Positions 1 to 6,041 of a stretch of 6,041 bases of DNA are shown in pieces. The translations under genes were made by a program, and so were the position numbers. The notes beneath the pieces are model-generated. The model saw nothing but the letters and a program-made list of their open reading frames with translations, had not been told where the DNA came from and made no database searches. The stretch is taken from the IMG/VR virus record IMGVR_UViG_3300045988_001127, positions 1-6,041 of that record; one strand, given 5' to 3'. This stretch comes from a virus. How positions within the stretch are numbered: the stretch's first letter is position 1; the number at the start of each line of letters is the position of its first letter.

Positions 1-77
1 AGCCAAATGTTTCTCCCATTGAGAATTGCTGTAAAAATCAAAATAGATTTTCTGATAAGCAAGGAACGGAAGAGCAT
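1..77. repeat. Terminal direct repeat, copy 1 (identical to 5965..6041); overlap of a circular genome
   Basis: Base-by-base comparison: agccaaatgtttctcccattgagaattgctgtaaaaatcaaaatagattttctgataagcaaggaacggaagagcat occurs at 1..77 and at 5965..6041 with no mismatch. The capsid reading frame stays in phase across the join. Confidence 0.97.
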
Positions 78-686: not shown

Positions 687-2366
687 TTAAACCATACGGT
701 TGAAAATATTATTAGCATCATTAAGCTTTTTGTGCTTAATCATGTCACGACAGAATGTTGCACTACGGTACCGGAGTTGCTCAAGAAGCTCAGATGTTTC
801 ACTCGAAACGGTCTGCAAGACATCCATTTCGCACCCGTTCTGAGGGAACGCAAACATACAATCCGAAATATCCGGGTTTTGGGATCGTAAGTTGAATGCA
901 TCTCGTAAACTTTCATAATCTTTTTTCTTTTCATACTCTATGCCTGTTTTAATGATAAACATAATACGACCGGAGTAAGCACTAACATCAGAACCGAAGA
1001 GAGGCAAATGCCAGTTACGGAAGAACTTATAGACATATAAGAATAGCCGATATAGCTTATTAATATAAGATTCGATATCGACATCACTAGAACAGTTAAC
1101 AAACCTAGTAAGACACCGAGAAGCATGTAATATAATCTTGTCATCATCAGTAAGAATAGAATTGACTTTAAGATATTGATAATAAGTGCGGACAAGACTC
1201 AAAATTGAGTCCTGTTTGTAGGCAATAAATCCGAATTTTGCAATTCTCTTTGGCGTTGAGTGTACAGCGCGAAGAATTCGAGCAATCGCAATACTATCGT
1301 CATTGCGAGTAGACGAGAATCTGGGCAATAAGGTACGGATATACGACATGGGTGGAGTTGACCGAATACTGAGGCCGTTGAAGTTATGGATTCTTCCATT
1401 AACGACAGAATCGATTTTTTGCTCAATCTGCGCATAAGGGTCTTCACCTTCCACGAAATCGCAACCTTTCTCAAAGAATCCCAAAGACGCTCTCGAGCGG
1501 GGTTTAAACGCGCGGCATGAGCGATATAATAAGGGAGCAGAACTAAGGCTATTAACGTAACTCGCAATGTACGAAGAAGCTCCACCTCTGGCAATCTGGA
1601 AATCTGAACGACCGAACTTCCAACTCTTATCGTGACAGTATCGTAATACCTTTGAGACTTCTTCCGAGTTCGTGAATAATAAGATATGGTAATGCGGGCG
1701 GAAATGCACAGGGCCGTACTCACCAACAGCGTAGAAATGTAGCGTTTCATATTTTCCTAGTTGTTGAAATAAATATTTACGTAATCTTTTAATATAATTC
1801 TGAACATCAACATAGTTTAAAAAGGGAATAAGGTTATCACGACCGTATTGTTCAGAAGCGGGATAATCCGTTTTGTCAACCGATTGCGTCTTATAGATAA
1901 AACTACGAATAGCAGCCATACTAAGAAACCAATTGTCCTTAACAGGAACATATTCCTTAATCTCACGGTCAAACGGCACTGTACCTTGTACCTGTTCGAA
2001 GAATATATGACGCAGCATGGAGTCATCATCACATCGATACTCGGAAACAGGAATATATTTATGATATTCATCACCAAAATGAATATCTCCTGAGATACCT
2101 ACAACGTCCTCATATTCACTGTGGAGAACCTTACAATTCATAAGAGGAATATGTTCGTTGTCATACGTAAGAGTTACAAAATAAGAATACTTAAAAGCAC
2201 TTCCAGCGGTCTTCACACGCATGGACGCTTTCTGAGCACGCTTATGGATGCAATAATCGCATTGACCACAATCCACGGCAATACGTGCACCGTTATAACG
2301 ATTAGTAATAAACGAACGATGCTGGCAATGATCAGCCGCTTTCAGTAAATCAGGAGAAAATTTCAT
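687..2366 (-). CDS. VP4: Rolling-circle replication initiator (HUH endonuclease, Microviridae VP4 / phiX174 gpA-like), 559 aa
   Basis: ATG 2366..2364, TAA 689..687. N-terminal CGQCDYC (C33/C36/C39) resembles the CGxCxxC of Microviridae VP4. Motif I is FVTLTYD (aa 63-69). The HUH motif is HYHILLF, with HYH encoded at 1694..1686. The double-tyrosine motif is YIASYVNS (Y266 at 1571..1569, Y270 at 1559..1557), comparable to phiX174 gpA YVAKYVNK. Confidence 0.93.
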   Translation of the reverse strand: MKFSPDLLKAADHCQHRSFITNRYNGARIAVDCGQCDYCIHKRAQKASMRVKTAGSAFKYSYFVTLTYDNEHIPLMNCKVLHSEYEDVVGISGDIHFGDEYHKYIPVSEYRCDDDSMLRHIFFEQVQGTVPFDREIKEYVPVKDNWFLSMAAIRSFIYKTQSVDKTDYPASEQYGRDNLIPFLNYVDVQNYIKRLRKYLFQQLGKYETLHFYAVGEYGPVHFRPHYHILLFTNSEEVSKVLRYCHDKSWKFGRSDFQIARGGASSYIASYVNSLSSAPLLYRSCRAFKPRSRASLGFFEKGCDFVEGEDPYAQIEQKIDSVVNGRIHNFNGLSIRSTPPMSYIRTLLPRFSSTRNDDSIAIARILRAVHSTPKRIAKFGFIAYKQDSILSLVRTYYQYLKVNSILTDDDKIILHASRCLTRFVNCSSDVDIESYINKLYRLFLYVYKFFRNWHLPLFGSDVSAYSGRIMFIIKTGIEYEKKKDYESLRDAFNLRSQNPDISDCMFAFPQNGCEMDVLQTVSSETSELLEQLRYRSATFCRDMIKHKKLNDANNIFNRMV

Positions 2367-2990: not shown

Positions 2991-3021
2991 GCAAATATAC
3001 AAACTATTTTAATAATTCCAA
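2991..3021 (-). promoter_or_regulatory. Bacteroidota-type sigma-A promoter: -33 TTTG (3021..3018), 19-nt spacer, -7 TATATTTG (2998..2991)
   Basis: The minus strand reads TTTG-gaattattaaaatagtttg-TATATTTG, matching the Bacteroides consensus TTTG-N19-21-TAnnTTTG. It sits in the only long AT-rich noncoding stretch, about 50 nt upstream of the first gene, and is preceded by an A9 tract (3039..3031). Confidence 0.5.
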
Positions 3022-3112
3022 AAGAAATATCTTTTTTTTTAGATTGTACCATAGAGTGTGAGTTGTGCGTTTATGGACAAGGGATGGAGAATTCGAGAGG
3101 ATAACTCGAATT

Positions 3113-3139
3113 TGCTTTCGCACACAACTAGGGGCTTCG
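3113..3139 (-). other. Two DNA mini-hairpin motifs on the sense strand: GCGAAAGC (3120..3113) and GCGAAGC (3139..3133)
   Basis: Plus-strand gctttcgc at 3113..3120 and gcttcgc at 3133..3139 are the reverse complements of GCGAAAGC and GCGAAGC. Both therefore lie on the strand predicted to be packaged as ssDNA. Confidence 0.6.
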
Positions 3140-3216
3140 CTTAATTGACAAGTGAGTGTATACAGGGGTATATAGGCACGGCAGGTCAGATAGAACCTGC
3201 CTTTGCGCACTCCGTG

Positions 3217-3262
3217 CTAAAATACCGGAGCGGAACGCTCCTATAAGGAAGTCGCTCCGCTC
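3217..3262 (-). terminator. Candidate intrinsic terminator after the last gene (VP2)
   Basis: The sense strand reads GGAGCGGAGCG-(15-nt loop)-CGTTCCGCTCC: 11 pairs, 10 Watson-Crick plus 1 G-T wobble. It is followed by GGTATTTTA (3225..3217). The T-tract is short and interrupted, so this is weak as a classical terminator. Confidence 0.35.
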
Positions 3263-3344
3263 CATATTTCGATCAGGCCCTACGCGGGCGGCGGGTGTAT
3301 ATCGCTCAAACGCCGCGATAGGCTTCTAGTCCTGAAGTATGTTC

Positions 3345-4448
3345 TTATTTACGGCCAAAGTTACCAAAACGAGCACCGGCGCCAACAAAATTACCAGCAC
3401 CGGAGGCAATACTACCAACACCACGAGCAACAGATTCCCAATAATGAGTACGGCCTTGTTTACGAGCCAAGTCTGCGCCATATTCAGCAGCTTTCTGATT
3501 CGCCATAGAAGTTTTATACTCCGTATGTTTACGAAGCTTAACATTCTTATAATCATACGTACTATCACGATATTGCAATTCATTAGAGGCATTAGCTGCC
3601 TTAATCAAAGAATCAGCCGTCTCGGAAGCTACACGATTGTCAATTTTCTTACCGGAAGCCTCAGCAGAAGCAAGAATAGCACGCTGAATTTCAGTCTGTA
3701 TTTGCTTCTCAGTAAGAGCACCTTGAGACTGGAGATTGGCTAAAGTTTGAGCCTTAATAAACAAATCAGCCTGTTGATTCTGGTCCATATACTTATTCAT
3801 AATACGTTGAGCATCAGAATTAAGCAAAATCTGTGCTTCTTGAGCAGCAGATATACGTTCAGCAAACTGGGCGTTTTTTAAATTCTGAGCCTCGGTAGAT
3901 TGGTCCAAAGCAGCAGACACACGGCCTGTTTCCTTGTTCCAATAACCGGAAGAGCCAATAGCTAGATTCTTCCAGTTAGTAAGACCTCTATAATAATCAG
4001 ACAAAAGAGGAGTTACCGTATCAGTCTGACGCGCACGAGAGCCTGATTCACCAGCAGAAGCCTCAGAAGCCTTAGCTTGAGCAAGGGAAGCAAGAGACTG
4101 AAACACGCTAGAAAAATTAGGCTTATAGGCCTGCATACTAGGAACAGGAGCAGCAGTAGCAGCAGCTCCGCCTGAAGCAGGAGACCTAGAACCAGCCATA
4201 GCAGCAGAACCTTGAACAAACGGATTCAAACCACGAGAAATCATAGCGTCAGGAGAATTGTAGGCATTATTCATGCCCCACATCTGTTGCTGCCAATCAC
4301 GTTGAATCTGAGCCTGCTCTGCGTTAAAAGCGTTCTGCTCACGCATCATACGGAGATTAACCTTATTCTGATGATTCTGATTAACCATACCGACAACATT
4401 GTCGGTAAGGTTTGCAGCCGAGGAAGCTATAGCATCAAATAGGCCCAT
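3345..4448 (-). CDS. VP2: Minor capsid / DNA pilot protein (VP2, gpH-like), 367 aa
   Basis: ATG 4448..4446, TAA 3347..3345. The N-terminal region NAFNAEQAQIQRDWQQQMWGMNNAYNSPDAMISRGLNPFV fits the conserved VP2 pattern (Q..W...M.N.AY..P.....AGLNP). The central part is Ala/Ser/Gln-rich and coiled-coil-like, and the tail is Gly-rich. It follows the capsid gene, as expected. Confidence 0.88.
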   Translation of the reverse strand: MGLFDAIASSAANLTDNVVGMVNQNHQNKVNLRMMREQNAFNAEQAQIQRDWQQQMWGMNNAYNSPDAMISRGLNPFVQGSAAMAGSRSPASGGAAATAAPVPSMQAYKPNFSSVFQSLASLAQAKASEASAGESGSRARQTDTVTPLLSDYYRGLTNWKNLAIGSSGYWNKETGRVSAALDQSTEAQNLKNAQFAERISAAQEAQILLNSDAQRIMNKYMDQNQQADLFIKAQTLANLQSQGALTEKQIQTEIQRAILASAEASGKKIDNRVASETADSLIKAANASNELQYRDSTYDYKNVKLRKHTEYKTSMANQKAAEYGADLARKQGRTHYWESVARGVGSIASGAGNFVGAGARFGNFGRK

Positions 4449-4888
4449 TATTCAGGAGAGGCAGGGGCGGGATCCGAAGACGGCGCTGCCTTTTGCTCTG
4501 CCAACATAGATTCGGCATAAGCCGATAGTTCAGACTTCTCACTGGCCAACTGCTGTAAAACAGCCTGACGTTCAGACATAGTTTGACAATGACGGGAGAT
4601 AACACAATCAAAACGTTCTTCATCAGTCATACCATCCATTATAGTAGACTGAGTAGGATGCATTTGGGCAAGAATATTCTGAACATTCATATCACCAAGT
4701 AACCGGCGATATTTTTCCTGATTCAGCAAAATCTGCGTCATATCACATTGAATCAAGTCACCATCAGGAGATTCATCATACATAACTGTATCATATACAG
4801 ACTGCTGATAACACGGATTATCCTCAATCAACTCGGGAACAACCTCATTTTTAATATAATCGGGGTTTTTATAAGCAAAACTTCTCAT
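4448..4888 (-). CDS. Hypothetical acidic 146-aa protein between VP1 and VP2 (position compatible with an internal scaffolding VP3-like protein)
   Basis: ATG 4888..4886. The TAA stop (4450..4448) overlaps the VP2 ATG by one base (TAATG). Third positions are T-rich. I recognise no motif, so the function is inferred from position only. Confidence 0.75.
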   Translation of the reverse strand: MRSFAYKNPDYIKNEVVPELIEDNPCYQQSVYDTVMYDESPDGDLIQCDMTQILLNQEKYRRLLGDMNVQNILAQMHPTQSTIMDGMTDEERFDCVISRHCQTMSERQAVLQQLASEKSELSAYAESMLAEQKAAPSSDPAPASPE

Positions 4889-4899
4889 AACAATACAAA

Positions 4900-6041
4900 T
4901 TAATAAGGTAAACCATTTCTATCCAAGTTCTGTACAGCATATACTTGGAAATTAACATTACAGAGCAACTGGTCAAACGCAACAGAACAGTTCGCAGCAT
5001 CAATTTGAGGAACGAATATAGAATTCAGCTGTTGAGGACGAACTTTCATAGACTGGTAAGACCAAGCACCGGAAGAGGTTAACACCTGCCATCCATCAAG
5101 AGGAGCAGACCAAGACTGATAAGCAGCACCAGCACGGAATCCAGCGTGAACGGTATCAATATTAGATTTCCATTGCCAATAACGGAGGTTATAACCAAGA
5201 GAACCGGAAACATTACGGCCGGGGTTATTCTGAAGATTCAGAGCAGGAACAGCTTGCATACCAAGCTGGTCAAATGCAGGTTGCGGGAAGTCAGAGATAG
5301 CGGTCACAGTCAATTGAGGAGCCTGACCAGTCAAATTCCAATCCAACATGGGGACAGCATGGTATACACACATAATCACCTGATGTTCAGCGCCACAGTC
5401 ATAAGTAATAGTATGTCCGGAATTACTGGATACACCTTTACCAGCAATAGAAGCCTGAGAAGAGTCAGAATCAAGATTAGTATTAACTACCTCATTAATG
5501 TTGATAACACTGGACCAACCTCCAATATAATGAGCATGATTACCCATGTATTCGGGAGCCTTAATACCAAATTGAGCGGCCATTTGGTCAGAGTAGTCTT
5601 TGCTAGAGAATTGTACTACTTCTTTCCAGCGCTGGAGATATTCTGTGGCACGAATTGAGAGAGCGGAAAGATCGGAATTAAGAGAAACAGGATAATTAGA
5701 ACCGGTACCAGCAGAACTGAGGGCAACAGTCGTACCTGAAGTATTAACAAGGACAGAAGCGGTACCAGCAGCATTAGGAGCAACAAGATAAGATGAAGCA
5801 TGAGAAGAAAATTTAGAAGGTAATACAGCTACCGAACCATATTGAGAAGATGGCAACATACCCATAAAGTAATCTTTCGGGTAGTTTGCATAGCGAAGTT
5901 TAACCATTTCCGTAACCAGTGAGATCTGACCGGTACCAGACCAATAATCAACATTATAAGAATAAGCCAAATGTTTCTCCCATTGAGAATTGCTGTAAAA
6001 ATCAAAATAGATTTTCTGATAAGCAAGGAACGGAAGAGCAT
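4900..6041 (-). CDS. VP1: Major capsid protein VP1/F, C-terminal part (354 unique codons, 5964..4903, plus stop; 5965..6041 duplicates 1..77)
   Basis: TAA at 4902..4900. The track's M at 5970 is an internal TTG (Leu). The frame stays open to the window end and reads ...QWEKHLAYSYNVDYW across the 1/5964 junction. Joined length is 577 aa. Confidence 0.93.
   Translation of the reverse strand, partial: ALPFLAYQKIYFDFYSNSQWEKHLAYSYNVDYWSGTGQISLVTEMVKLRYANYPKDYFMGMLPSSQYGSVAVLPSKFSSHASSYLVAPNAAGTASVLVNTSGTTVALSSAGTGSNYPVSLNSDLSALSIRATEYLQRWKEVVQFSSKDYSDQMAAQFGIKAPEYMGNHAHYIGGWSSVININEVVNTNLDSDSSQASIAGKGVSSNSGHTITYDCGAEHQVIMCVYHAVPMLDWNLTGQAPQLTVTAISDFPQPAFDQLGMQAVPALNLQNNPGRNVSGSLGYNLRYWQWKSNIDTVHAGFRAGAAYQSWSAPLDGWQVLTSSGAWSYQSMKVRPQQLNSIFVPQIDAANCSVAFDQLLCNVNFQVYAVQNLDRNGLPY
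5965..6041. repeat. Terminal direct repeat, copy 2 (identical to 1..77)
   Basis: See copy 1: 77 of 77 identical. Confidence 0.97.

What the first reader, a model, noticed from the sequence alone, without database searches (positions are those of the whole stretch)
3050..3330. Compositionally foreign, multi-hairpin noncoding module between the last gene and the promoter
Seen: about 290 nt with no credible coding frame. The 68-aa and 45-aa ORFs here have only about 20-30% T at third positions, against about 55-60% in real genes. GC is much higher than the flanks (58/100 against 29/100 in the segments I counted). There are at least four strong stem-loops plus mutually exclusive alternative pairings, for example GGAGCG/CGCTCC can pair in three ways across 3226..3262. 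Established: ssDNA phages use folded viral-strand hairpins as complementary-strand origins (phiX174 primosome assembly site, G4 oric for DnaG, Ff minus origin for RNA polymerase). Microviridae are normally packed so tightly that a noncoding block this large is conspicuous. Inference: this is a minus-strand origin, possibly doubling as the transcription stop for the genome-length operon. Alternatives are a structured RNA (3' UTR element or sRNA), or an attP/dif-like site for host Xer-mediated integration as proposed for Bacteroidota microviral prophages.
Basis: partly seen in the sequence, partly recalled or inferred. Interest (0 to 1): 0.7.

Follow-up and report, generated by a model that had tools for sequence, protein, structure and literature searches.

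The report
Conserved folded origin-like module of gut microviruses
The GC-rich gap after the last gene of this small single-stranded DNA phage of gut Bacteroidales is a real, strongly conserved, multi-hairpin noncoding module, most likely holding the transcription stop and the folded-DNA signal where the host starts copying the incoming strand, though no experiment shows that function.

Summary
Window 3049-3337 (gene-sense = window minus strand) is noncoding, GC-rich and folds better than shuffles. It is the best-conserved stretch of the genome across 212 relatives.

It has two parts:
- A roughly 190-nt 5' domain (3148-3337). It holds hairpins, a compact pseudoknot supported by covariation, and a terminator-like hairpin plus U-run.
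- A roughly 95-nt three-way junction (3054-3147). It carries GCGAAGC and GCGAAAGC, the "mini-hairpin" sequences known from ssDNA priming sites.

Compensatory changes support the fold: 28 of 56 pairs across 116 sequences. A covariance model built from close relatives finds the junction, syntenic and on the sense strand, in 11 of 12 microviruses whose Rep is only 22-34% identical.

The junction lies between a terminator and the only Bacteroidota-type promoter. It almost lacks G·U pairs. It persists where the 5' domain is replaced by a plain terminator.

There is no Rfam hit, no dif-like site and no prophage copy.

Best reading (about 0.5): a DNA-level replication-origin module with the junction as the complementary-strand origin. 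Rivals are a Rep nick site (plus origin) and a structured RNA. I class it as a new variant of a known kind.

The parts
3148..3337 (-). 5' domain of the module, about 190 nt. It is clade-specific and replaceable.
   Evidence: Conserved at 0.863 mean identity in 212 genomes. Helices are supported by covariation. It is absent or replaced by a plain terminator hairpin in L168, L193 and L041.
3301..3319 (-). Hairpin Pa (AUCGC / GCGAU)
   Evidence: One pair shows GC 158 / AU 21 / CG 4 with no unpaired cells in 190 sequences. Its top mutual-information partner is its predicted mate.
3277..3293 (-). Compact H-type pseudoknot. Stem S1 is 3293-3291 with 3285-3283. Stem S2 is 3289-3286 with 3280-3277.
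   Evidence: S1 outer pair is CG 171 / UA 10 / GC 9. S2 pair is CG 182 / GC 6 / AU 2. There are no violations in 190 sequences. The competing long-range pairing UAGGG/CCCUA is broken in exactly the 8 sequences that covary in S2. Both stems were counted.
3226..3264 (-). Terminator-like hairpin region with mutually exclusive pairings. Long form Pb is 3264-3257 with 3233-3226. Short form Pc is 3241-3236 with 3232-3227. It contains GCGGAGC at 3254-3260.
   Evidence: flags GGAGCGTTCCGCTCC + GGTATTTTAG as terminator-like. In Pc the pair m105-m117 is GC 111 / AU 71 with mutual information equal to the column's full entropy. The alternatives are listed.
3219..3224 (-). U/T-rich run (UAUUUU) just after the terminator hairpin
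   Evidence: It is longer (T5-T6) in relatives L021, L152 and L148.
3207..3217 (-). Hairpin Pd (GCAC-GGA-GUGC), with a c-GNA-g type triloop
   Evidence: One pair is AU 147 / GC 43 with no violations.
3176..3206 (-). Hairpin Pe (GCA..GGCAGGU / ACCUGCC..UGC)
   Evidence: Compensatory and G·U changes are seen.
3159..3172 (-). Optional hairpin Pf (UAUAC / GUAUA). It contains two of the three TATACMCY repeats.
   Evidence: It is deleted in the Dulem 237/254 group. One search gives the repeat count. One of its five pairs is badly aligned in A3.
3054..3147 (-). 3' domain: the three-way junction, the universal core of the module
   Evidence: The model R1 hit spans 3049-3147 at 110.7 bits. In alignment A5, 98.9% of cells are paired and 10 of 20 pairs show compensatory change. 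In alignment A6, which includes outgroups, 97.4% of cells are paired and 17 of 20 pairs are compensatory. Mean identity is 0.897 in 212 genomes, the highest of any region.
3134..3140 (-). Mini-hairpin 1, GCGAAGC
   Evidence: It is ACGAAGT in L123/L164, which keeps the pair. It is kept as GCGAAGC in outgroups L301, L302 and L303.
3114..3121 (-). Mini-hairpin 2, GCGAAAGC. Relatives have GCGAAGC, CCGAAGG or ACGAAGT.
   Evidence: The outer pair is GC 68 / CG 42 / AU 4.
3061..3129 (-). Closing stem Pg of the junction (3129-3122 with 3068-3061). It encloses mini-hairpin 2, hairpin Pi and the linker.
   Evidence: Variants AGTTGCGT/GCGCAACT and AGTTCAAT/GTTGAACT keep pairing. Six of 8 pairs are compensatory when outgroups are included.
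3090..3112 (-). Hairpin Pi with the conserved loop UUAUCCU
   Evidence: Five of 8 pairs are compensatory in the ingroup. All 8 are compensatory with outgroups included.
3069..3089 (-). Single-stranded, pyrimidine-rich linker ending in the conserved CTTGTCCATAAAC
   Evidence: It is conserved in the ingroup and, as CTTGTC.(A/T)-rich, in outgroups. It resembles the pC194 nick region TCTTTCTTATCTTG|ATAATA.
3055..3060 (-). Conserved unpaired tail CACACT just 3' of the closing stem. Outgroups have ACAG or ACAC.
3032..3040 (-). A9 run between the junction and the promoter
   Evidence: An A-run is present in most relatives.
2992..3022 (-). Bacteroidota-type promoter TTTG-N19-TAtaTTTG, which drives the 65-aa gene and the rest of the genome
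   Evidence: It is the only match in the whole window. Both motifs are conserved in the alignment.

Best explanation
The module is the cis-acting control region of a circular ssDNA phage (Microviridae) that infects gut Bacteroidales. It works mainly as folded viral-strand DNA.

Proposed mechanism, in order along the gene-sense strand:
- Transcription of the single genome-length operon ends at the hairpin plus U-run at 3241-3219.
- The downstream three-way junction (3054-3147) lies between that stop and the only promoter.
- In the incoming SSB-coated single strand, the junction folds into a very stable structure. That structure is nucleated by GCGAAGC / GCGAAAGC mini-hairpins.
- The folded junction marks where a host enzyme (primase, RNA polymerase or a primosome) lays down the primer for the complementary strand.
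- The 5' domain (hairpins plus pseudoknot) is an accessory, exchangeable part: terminator plus helper structure.

What is shown: the anatomy, the conservation, the covariation, the position and the sequence motifs.

What is inferred: priming at this site, and which enzyme does it.
For: Basic properties:
- It is noncoding and the best-conserved region of the genome. Identity is 0.897 for the junction and 0.863 for the 5' domain, against 0.82 for Rep, 0.76 for MCP and 0.53 for VP2.
- The fold is supported by compensatory changes. Each tested position's top mutual-information partner is its predicted mate.

Depth of conservation:
- The junction is found by covariance model R1 in the syntenic gap, on the sense strand, in 11 of 12 microviruses with Rep only 22-34% identical.
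- Seven of those hits have E <= 1.3e-3.
- The junction remains when the 5' domain is replaced by a plain terminator. It is therefore the only universal noncoding structure.

Pointers to a DNA-level role:
- It sits after a terminator-like hairpin (most outgroups as well) and before the only Bacteroidota promoter. It should therefore be poorly transcribed.
- G·U pairs are nearly absent in the junction: 2 of 235 cells in A6.
- Three of the six genome matches to GCGNAGC/GCGNNAGC lie in the module, all on the sense strand.
- These are the DNA mini-hairpins found at the G4 primase site and in RSF1010 ssiA (PMC13037366).

Precedent and necessity:
- Every microvirus needs a complementary-strand origin.
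- Conserved intergenic hairpins have been proposed for this role in other microvirus clades (PMC9865509).
Against: - No primer start, host factor or orientation dependence can be tested here.
- The viral strand and the mRNA have the same sense, so covariation cannot separate DNA from RNA.
- Folding z-scores are significant on both strands.
- The mini-hairpin consensus is not strictly kept in deeper relatives, which have GCGAACGC, GCGGATGC and CCCAACGGG.
- Genome-wide counts of the mini-hairpin motif are not above shuffles. Only their clustering in the module is notable.
- The near absence of G·U in the junction also fits a structure needed on both strands, such as a cruciform at a plus origin.
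- Terminator efficiency is unknown, so the junction may still be transcribed.
- Most loci were collected by exact patterns inside the module, so invariance at those positions is partly by construction.
Confidence: 0.5

Rival explanations
1. The three-way junction is the plus-strand (rolling-circle) origin. The HUH Rep (VP4) nicks and rejoins the viral strand in the single-stranded linker at or near CTTG. The junction presents that linker. The exchangeable 5' domain, or something else, serves as the minus origin. This would be a plasmid-like dso + sso arrangement. The reading is not exclusive of the best explanation, since both origins could lie in this region.
For: - The linker ...TCTCC.TTCTCTTG TCCATAAAC resembles the pC194 nick region TCTTTCTTATCTTG|ATAATA (PMC5037232). 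From my own knowledge it also resembles the phiX174 site CAACTTG|ATATTAATAAC.
- CTTG plus an A/T-rich stretch is kept in outgroups with about 25% identical Rep. This is typical of nick sites.
- Almost no G·U pairs occur, so both strands could fold.
- The 5' domain behaves like an exchangeable cassette.
- TATACMCY occurs three times, only in the module. That is iteron-like, but the pattern was chosen post hoc.
- In rolling-circle plasmids the sso usually lies close to the dso.
Against: - The match to CTTGATA is partial: the module has CTTGTC.
- In phiX174 the plus origin lies inside gene A and needs no junction (own knowledge).
- Genomes without the 5' domain would then have no obvious minus origin.
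- Extrusion of a 95-nt three-way junction from duplex DNA is energetically costly.
- No nicking data exist.
Confidence: 0.22
2. The module, or part of it, acts as RNA. It could be a structured 3' UTR that stops and stabilises the genome-length mRNA, or a processed noncoding RNA of about 100-290 nt with a pseudoknot and a three-way junction.
For: - It has the same sense as the mRNA and directly abuts the VP2 stop codon.
- A terminator-like hairpin plus U-run is present.
- A covariation-supported H-type pseudoknot and highly conserved unpaired stretches are typical of functional RNAs.
- G·U pairs are tolerated in 5'-domain helices.
- The RNA-parameter folding z-score is -4.45.
Against: - No Rfam family matches even at E <= 1.
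- The junction lies downstream of the terminator and upstream of the only promoter motif.
- G·U is very rare in the junction.
- Loops are c-GNA-g triloops, which are especially stable in DNA and are not the usual RNA tetraloops (plus own knowledge).
- The 5' domain is dispensable in some relatives.
Confidence: 0.2
3. The module is an attP or dif-like site. It would be folded or duplex DNA used by host XerC/D to integrate the phage, as proposed for Bacteroidetes microviral prophages and shown for CTXphi.
For: - Prophage microviruses with dif-like att sites exist in Bacteroides and Prevotella (PMC3091885).
- The short string GTGCGCA (3208-3214, minus strand; within GAGTGCGCAAAGG) recalls the XerC arm of E. 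coli dif (own knowledge).
Against: - The window has no match to the 28-nt dif consensus with up to 3 mismatches.
- Two different junction patterns give no copy in one genome from each of 185,579 species.
- In the metagenome scan all hits were contigs of about 6 kb or shorter fragments, apart from CRISPR arrays.
- 290 nt of covarying structure is far more than an att site needs.
Confidence: 0.03

Closest known systems
G4-type complementary-strand origin (oric) of Microviridae, recognised by DnaG primase
   Same: Both are structured, SSB-resistant hairpins of the viral strand in an intergenic region. Both contain the GCGAAAGC mini-hairpin sequence (PMC13037366; window 3114-3121).
   Different: There is no sequence similarity. 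blastn of the module against 50,697 phage records hit only this clade. The architecture is a three-way junction plus an accessory pseudoknotted domain, not three tandem hairpins. The host is Bacteroidales and the priming enzyme is unknown.
Ff (M13/f1) intergenic region
   Same: Both are one long noncoding region after the last gene's terminator. In Ff that region holds the folded minus origin next to the plus origin and precedes the next promoter (own knowledge).
   Different: Ff belongs to a different virus family and has no homology to this module. The Ff hairpins mimic a sigma-70 promoter. No Bacteroidota promoter mimic was found in this module.
Single-strand origins (ssoA/U/T/W) of rolling-circle plasmids, adjacent to the dso
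   Same: Both are 150-300 nt, highly structured and strand-specific. Both have conserved unpaired motifs, can be exchanged as cassettes, and lie close to the nick site (PMC5037232).
   Different: The sso motifs RSB and CS-6 were not identified. This element is in a phage, not a plasmid. Function is untested.
RSF1010 ssiA/ssiB priming signals
   Same: Both have a hairpin with a CCGAAGG mini-hairpin that stabilises a primase recognition stem. The same heptamer is the commonest variant of mini-hairpin 2 here.
   Different: The RSF1010 signals are about 40 nt and are recognised by a plasmid-encoded primase. This phage encodes no recognisable primase.
Intergenic hairpins of reekeekee- and roodoodoo-microviruses
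   Same: Both are conserved intergenic DNA hairpins with compensatory substitutions. They were tentatively linked to negative-strand initiation (PMC9865509).
   Different: Those are single short hairpins in unrelated clades. Here there is a 290-nt composite with a junction conserved across Rep proteins only about 25% identical.
phiX174 / pC194 plus-origin nick site (CTTG|ATA)
   Same: Both have a pyrimidine-rich run ending in CTTG, followed by an A/T-rich stretch. Rep is a homologous HUH protein.
   Different: The motif here is CTTGTC.ATAAA, and it sits as a single-stranded linker inside a junction. No cleavage has been demonstrated.

Membership tests
ssDNA-phage complementary-strand origin (generic) | Lies in a noncoding stretch of the packaged (viral) strand | tested here: met
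   No conserved ORF is present. All genes are on the same strand. The module is syntenic in relatives.
ssDNA-phage complementary-strand origin (generic) | Stable secondary structure maintained by selection | tested here: met
   Folding z-scores are -4.45 and -4.48. Compensatory changes are seen.
ssDNA-phage complementary-strand origin (generic) | Structure specific to the viral strand | tested here: inconclusive
   G·U pairs on the sense strand occur in the 5' domain, but A·C cells also occur. The junction has almost no G·U. Both strands fold significantly.
ssDNA-phage complementary-strand origin (generic) | Primer synthesis by a host enzyme starts here, and function depends on orientation | not testable with these tools
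   This needs in vitro ssDNA-to-RF assays or primer mapping.
G4-type oric | Sequence or architecture homology to the G4, St-1 or alpha3 origin (three hairpins, CTG start site) | tested here: not met
   blastn (distant mode) of the module against the phage collection hit only 34 records of this clade. The architecture is a three-way junction.
Any described RNA family (Rfam 15) | Covariance-model match | tested here: not met
   There were 0 matches at E <= 1 over the whole window on both strands. No tRNA or tmRNA was found.
Rho-independent terminator | GC-rich hairpin followed directly by a U/T run on the gene strand | tested here: met
   The site is 3241-3227, GGAGCGTTCCGCTCC + GGTATTTTAG. Relatives have T5-T6. 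Whether it actually terminates transcription was not tested.
dif-like / XerCD attP site | 28-nt dif-like sequence | tested here: not met
   There were 0 matches with up to 3 mismatches.
dif-like / XerCD attP site | Integrated copies with junctions in host chromosomes | tested here: not met
   There were 0 hits in genome contigs with two patterns. Metagenome hits are contigs of about 6 kb, shorter fragments, or CRISPR arrays.
phiX174/pC194-type plus origin (dso) | Nick motif CTTG|ATA recognised by an HUH Rep | tested here: inconclusive
   An HUH Rep is present. The linker has CTTGTCCATAAAC, a partial match. Cleavage cannot be tested here.
Hirao DNA mini-hairpin (GCGNAGC / GCGNNAGC) | Exact consensus sequence | tested here: met
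   GCGAAGC is at 3134-3140, GCGGAGC at 3254-3260 and GCGAAAGC at 3114-3121, all on the sense strand. The consensus is not kept in all deeper relatives.

The most novel reading that the evidence does not exclude
The three-way junction is the previously unmapped plus-strand origin of non-phiX microviruses. Rep would nick at CTTG in a single-stranded linker that is displayed by a conserved DNA junction rather than read in duplex DNA. The exchangeable 5' domain would be the minus origin. This would make a plasmid-like dso + sso cassette, conserved across a whole subfamily-level clade of abundant human-gut phages.
Probability: 0.22. Interest if true: 0.7.

Novelty: new variant of a known kind. Interest (0 to 1): 0.55.

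Why it matters
These microviruses are very common in human and animal guts. More than 2,800 Rep relatives were found in public data. Their replication signals are unknown, and the phages are mostly uncultured.

A defined, deeply conserved roughly 95-nt junction gives four practical things:
- a concrete target for in vitro priming and nicking assays with Bacteroides proteins;
- a noncoding marker, with a covariance model, for recognising and orienting this clade in metagenomes;
- a correction for spurious ORF calls in deposited genomes;
- a candidate minimal origin for building Bacteroides ssDNA vectors.

If it proved to be RNA, or a structure-displayed nick site, it would be a new class of element.

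Tried and rejected
- Rfam at E <= 1 and ARAGORN found nothing.
- The dif consensus found nothing.
- Two genome-contig scans for prophage or host copies found nothing.
- Single-protein search for related loci and the search for homologous proteins with Rep returned only close relatives (>= 75% identity), so they did not reach outgroups. tblastn against annotated phages did reach them.
- RNAalifold on the whole module gave partly wrong long-range pairings. UAGGG/CCCUA and CGC/GCG at the mini-hairpin are contradicted by covariation. I therefore defined helices from stacked covarying pairs.
- Hairpin H1 (3337-3323) was rejected: it has 61 C·A cells at one pair.
- An apparent tertiary pair 3272-3270 / 3108-3106 was judged to be a phylogenetic artefact.
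- MAFFT misaligned the outgroups by one register, so I realigned them with the covariance model.
- Folding energy does not tell the strands apart.
- Genome-wide counts of mini-hairpin motifs are not above chance.
- One literature search was set too loosely and was useless.
- I found no paper describing this module.

Full report
**Context.** The window is a complete circular microvirus genome with a unit length of 5,964 nt and a 77-nt terminal overlap. All genes lie on the window minus strand. Pfam, PHROGs and annotated relatives identify the genes. In the order they are read they are:
- a 65-aa gene (2941-2744);
- an M15-type peptidase (2677-2369);
- the HUH replication initiator VP4 (2366-687);
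- the major capsid protein (wrapping the origin of the record);
- a 146-aa scaffold-like protein (4888-4448);
- the pilot protein VP2 (4448-3345).

The finding is the gap between the VP2 stop and the 65-aa gene. I number it on the gene-sense strand, with m1 = window 3344.

**Checking the observation.** GC rises to 0.51-0.59 in 3150-3349, against 0.21-0.33 just downstream. Their third-position T is 0.22-0.29 against 0.44-0.57 in real genes, and they are open in only 7 and 14 of 190 relatives. The 305 nt at 3040-3344 fold better than every shuffle on both strands. The z-scores are -4.45 (RNA) and -4.48 (DNA) for the sense strand, and -2.85 and -3.97 for the other strand. The three competing partners for the single CGCTCC arm are real.

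**Relatives.**
- blastn against annotated phages found the module at the same place in 34 microviruses from dog, lemur and human samples, at 75-87% identity.
- Exact-pattern scans found 109 and 114 viral contigs, and more than 120 metagenome contigs. Nearly all are about 6 kb.
- Across 212 genomes the junction (0.897) and the 5' domain (0.863) are the best-conserved regions. They are ahead of Rep (0.82), MCP (0.76) and VP2 (0.53).
- Caveat: most loci were collected by patterns inside the module, so invariance at those positions is partly by construction. The blastn set and the covariance-model search below do not have this bias.

**Anatomy.** I took helices from stacked, covarying column pairs. 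I then tested them on 190 sequences, by mutual information, and with the pair-count tool.

On 116 sequences the full structure has 95.9% of cells paired and compensatory changes at 28 of 56 pairs. None of 500 shuffles reached the observed values for paired cells, both-side changes or covariation score. Slid controls gave only 23-47% paired.

The 5' domain (3148-3337) holds the following elements:
- hairpin Pa;
- a compact H-type pseudoknot, with S1 at CG 171 / UA 10 / GC 9 and S2 at CG 182 / GC 6 / AU 2 and no violations;
- a hairpin region with two mutually exclusive forms (Pb and Pc) that share the 3' arm and are followed by GGUAUUUU;
- hairpins Pd, Pe and Pf.

The 3' domain (3054-3147) is a three-way junction, made up of:
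- mini-hairpin GCGAAGC;
- closing stem Pg;
- mini-hairpin GCGAAAGC;
- hairpin Pi with loop UUAUCCU;
- a 21-nt pyrimidine-rich single-stranded linker ending in CTTGTCCATAAAC;
- the tail CACAC.

**The two domains are separable.** Optional hairpins and a roughly 170-nt insert occur between them. In L168, L193 and L041 the 5' domain is absent, and a plain hairpin plus T-run precedes the junction.

**Depth of conservation.** The next relatives by Rep are only 22-34% identical. They share the gene order and have 170-820-nt gaps after the pilot gene. A covariance model built only from 22 ingroup junctions (A5: 98.9% paired, 10 of 20 pairs compensatory) was run with filters off.
- It gave a full-length, sense-strand, syntenic hit in 11 of 12 outgroup genomes.
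- Seven hits had E between 8e-9 and 1.3e-3, four had E of 0.19-0.28, and one genome had no hit.
- On the resulting alignment, 97.4% of cells pair and 17 of 20 pairs show compensatory change. The alignment is fitted to the model, so it leans towards the structure.

The junction is therefore an old, structure-constrained element of a large clade, not a recent foreign insert.

**DNA or RNA?** The viral strand and the mRNA share the same sense, so covariation cannot decide. Four points favour DNA:
- Position. A terminator-like hairpin plus U-run lies upstream of the junction in the window. Clear hairpin plus T-run sites lie between the pilot stop and the junction in most outgroups. The only TTTG-N17-21-TAnnTTTG promoter in the genome lies just downstream.
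- G·U pairs are almost absent in the junction: 2 of 235 cells in A6 and 2 variable cells in A5.
- Loop types. Hairpin loops are c-GNA-g triloops, and there are exact GCGNAGC/GCGNNAGC sequences. Three of the six such sites in the genome fall in the module, all on the sense strand. A review by their discoverer places GCGAAAGC at the G4 primase site, CCGAAGG in RSF1010 ssiA and GCGGAGC in the N4 single-stranded promoter (PMC13037366).
- No Rfam family matches.

Three points count against a purely DNA reading. The covariation-supported pseudoknot and the G·U-tolerant helices of the 5' domain look RNA-like. Terminator strength is unknown. The mini-hairpin consensus decays in deeper relatives.

**Which DNA function?** A complementary-strand origin is required by every microvirus and is normally an intergenic fold. 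The junction is the only universal noncoding structure. Similar proposals exist for other clades (PMC9865509). This is my best explanation, at about 0.5.

A serious rival, possibly a co-function, is the plus origin. The linker resembles the pC194 nick region TCTTTCTTATCTTG|ATAATA (PMC5037232). CTTG plus an A/T-rich stretch is conserved despite very divergent Reps. The lack of G·U would suit a structure needed on both strands. TATACMCY occurs three times, only here, although I chose that pattern post hoc.

The attP/dif idea is not supported.

**Host.** The promoter type points to Bacteroidota. Independently, metagenome contigs carry type I-C CRISPR arrays with spacers matching the junction and other parts of this phage. 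On one array-bearing contig (L213), Cas1c lies next to the array. The neighbouring HydG on that contig is 88-89% identical to proteins named Bacteroides caccae and Bacteroidales.

**Verdict.** The feature is real, strongly conserved and previously undescribed in the libraries available here. It belongs to a known kind (origin/terminator control region of an ssDNA replicon) but has a new architecture and unusually deep conservation. Its function is inferred, not shown.

Noticed in passing
L213 3700-5060 (contig OOAF01000088.1, 125 kb); also L177, L187, L189, L221, L249: These contigs carry type I-C CRISPR arrays with the repeat GTCACACCCTRCGTGGGTGTGTGGATTGAAAC. Their spacers match this phage clade, including the junction (L213 4533-4559 = window 3052-3078) and window 4573-4610 and 5030-5061. 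Cas1c lies next to the L213 array. The neighbouring HydG is 88-89% identical to Bacteroides caccae and Bacteroidales proteins, which points to a Bacteroidales host.
   Followed up: partly
window 1199-1750 (minus strand): A 183-aa ORF is overprinted on the Rep gene in another frame. It is open in 193 of 212 relatives, with 76% median identity against 83% for the Rep frame over the same span. It may be an overlapping gene or a by-product of codon bias.
   Followed up: partly
window 1-77 and 5965-6041: The window is a complete circular genome of 5,964 nt with a 77-nt terminal overlap from assembly.
   Followed up: yes
between window 3148 and 3158 in relatives (e.g. L002 around 720-760; L013, L231, L250, L076): This is an insertion hot spot between the two domains. 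About 20 relatives have an optional hairpin CCCTAGATCTATTAGTAATGGATCTAGGAC. Four have a roughly 170-nt insert with its own hairpin plus T-run.
   Followed up: no
window 3155-3162, 3165-3172, 3294-3301 (minus strand): TATACMCY occurs three times in the genome, all inside the module on the sense strand. Shuffles average 0.62 matches. Similar TATAC(A)CC motifs lie upstream of the junction in outgroups. They could be iteron-like Rep-binding sites. The pattern was chosen post hoc.
   Followed up: partly
L009 1506-1832 (PP511392); L300 3581-3784 (PP511853); L005 and L010 small CDS next to the module: Deposited genomes annotate 'hypothetical protein' CDSs that overlap the conserved noncoding module or junction. 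These calls are probably spurious.
   Followed up: partly
protein cluster P0040: A Rep 91% identical to the window's is labelled Corynebacterium striatum in NCBI. This is probably phage contamination of a bacterial assembly.
   Followed up: no
L300, L302, L303 about 3480-3530: Outgroup genomes carry ACCGCGCGTAGCGTGGT followed by TATACACC. This echoes the ingroup GATATACACC + CGCCGCCCGCGTAGGGC pseudoknot region in permuted order. Parts of the 5' domain may therefore also be older than the ingroup.
   Followed up: no
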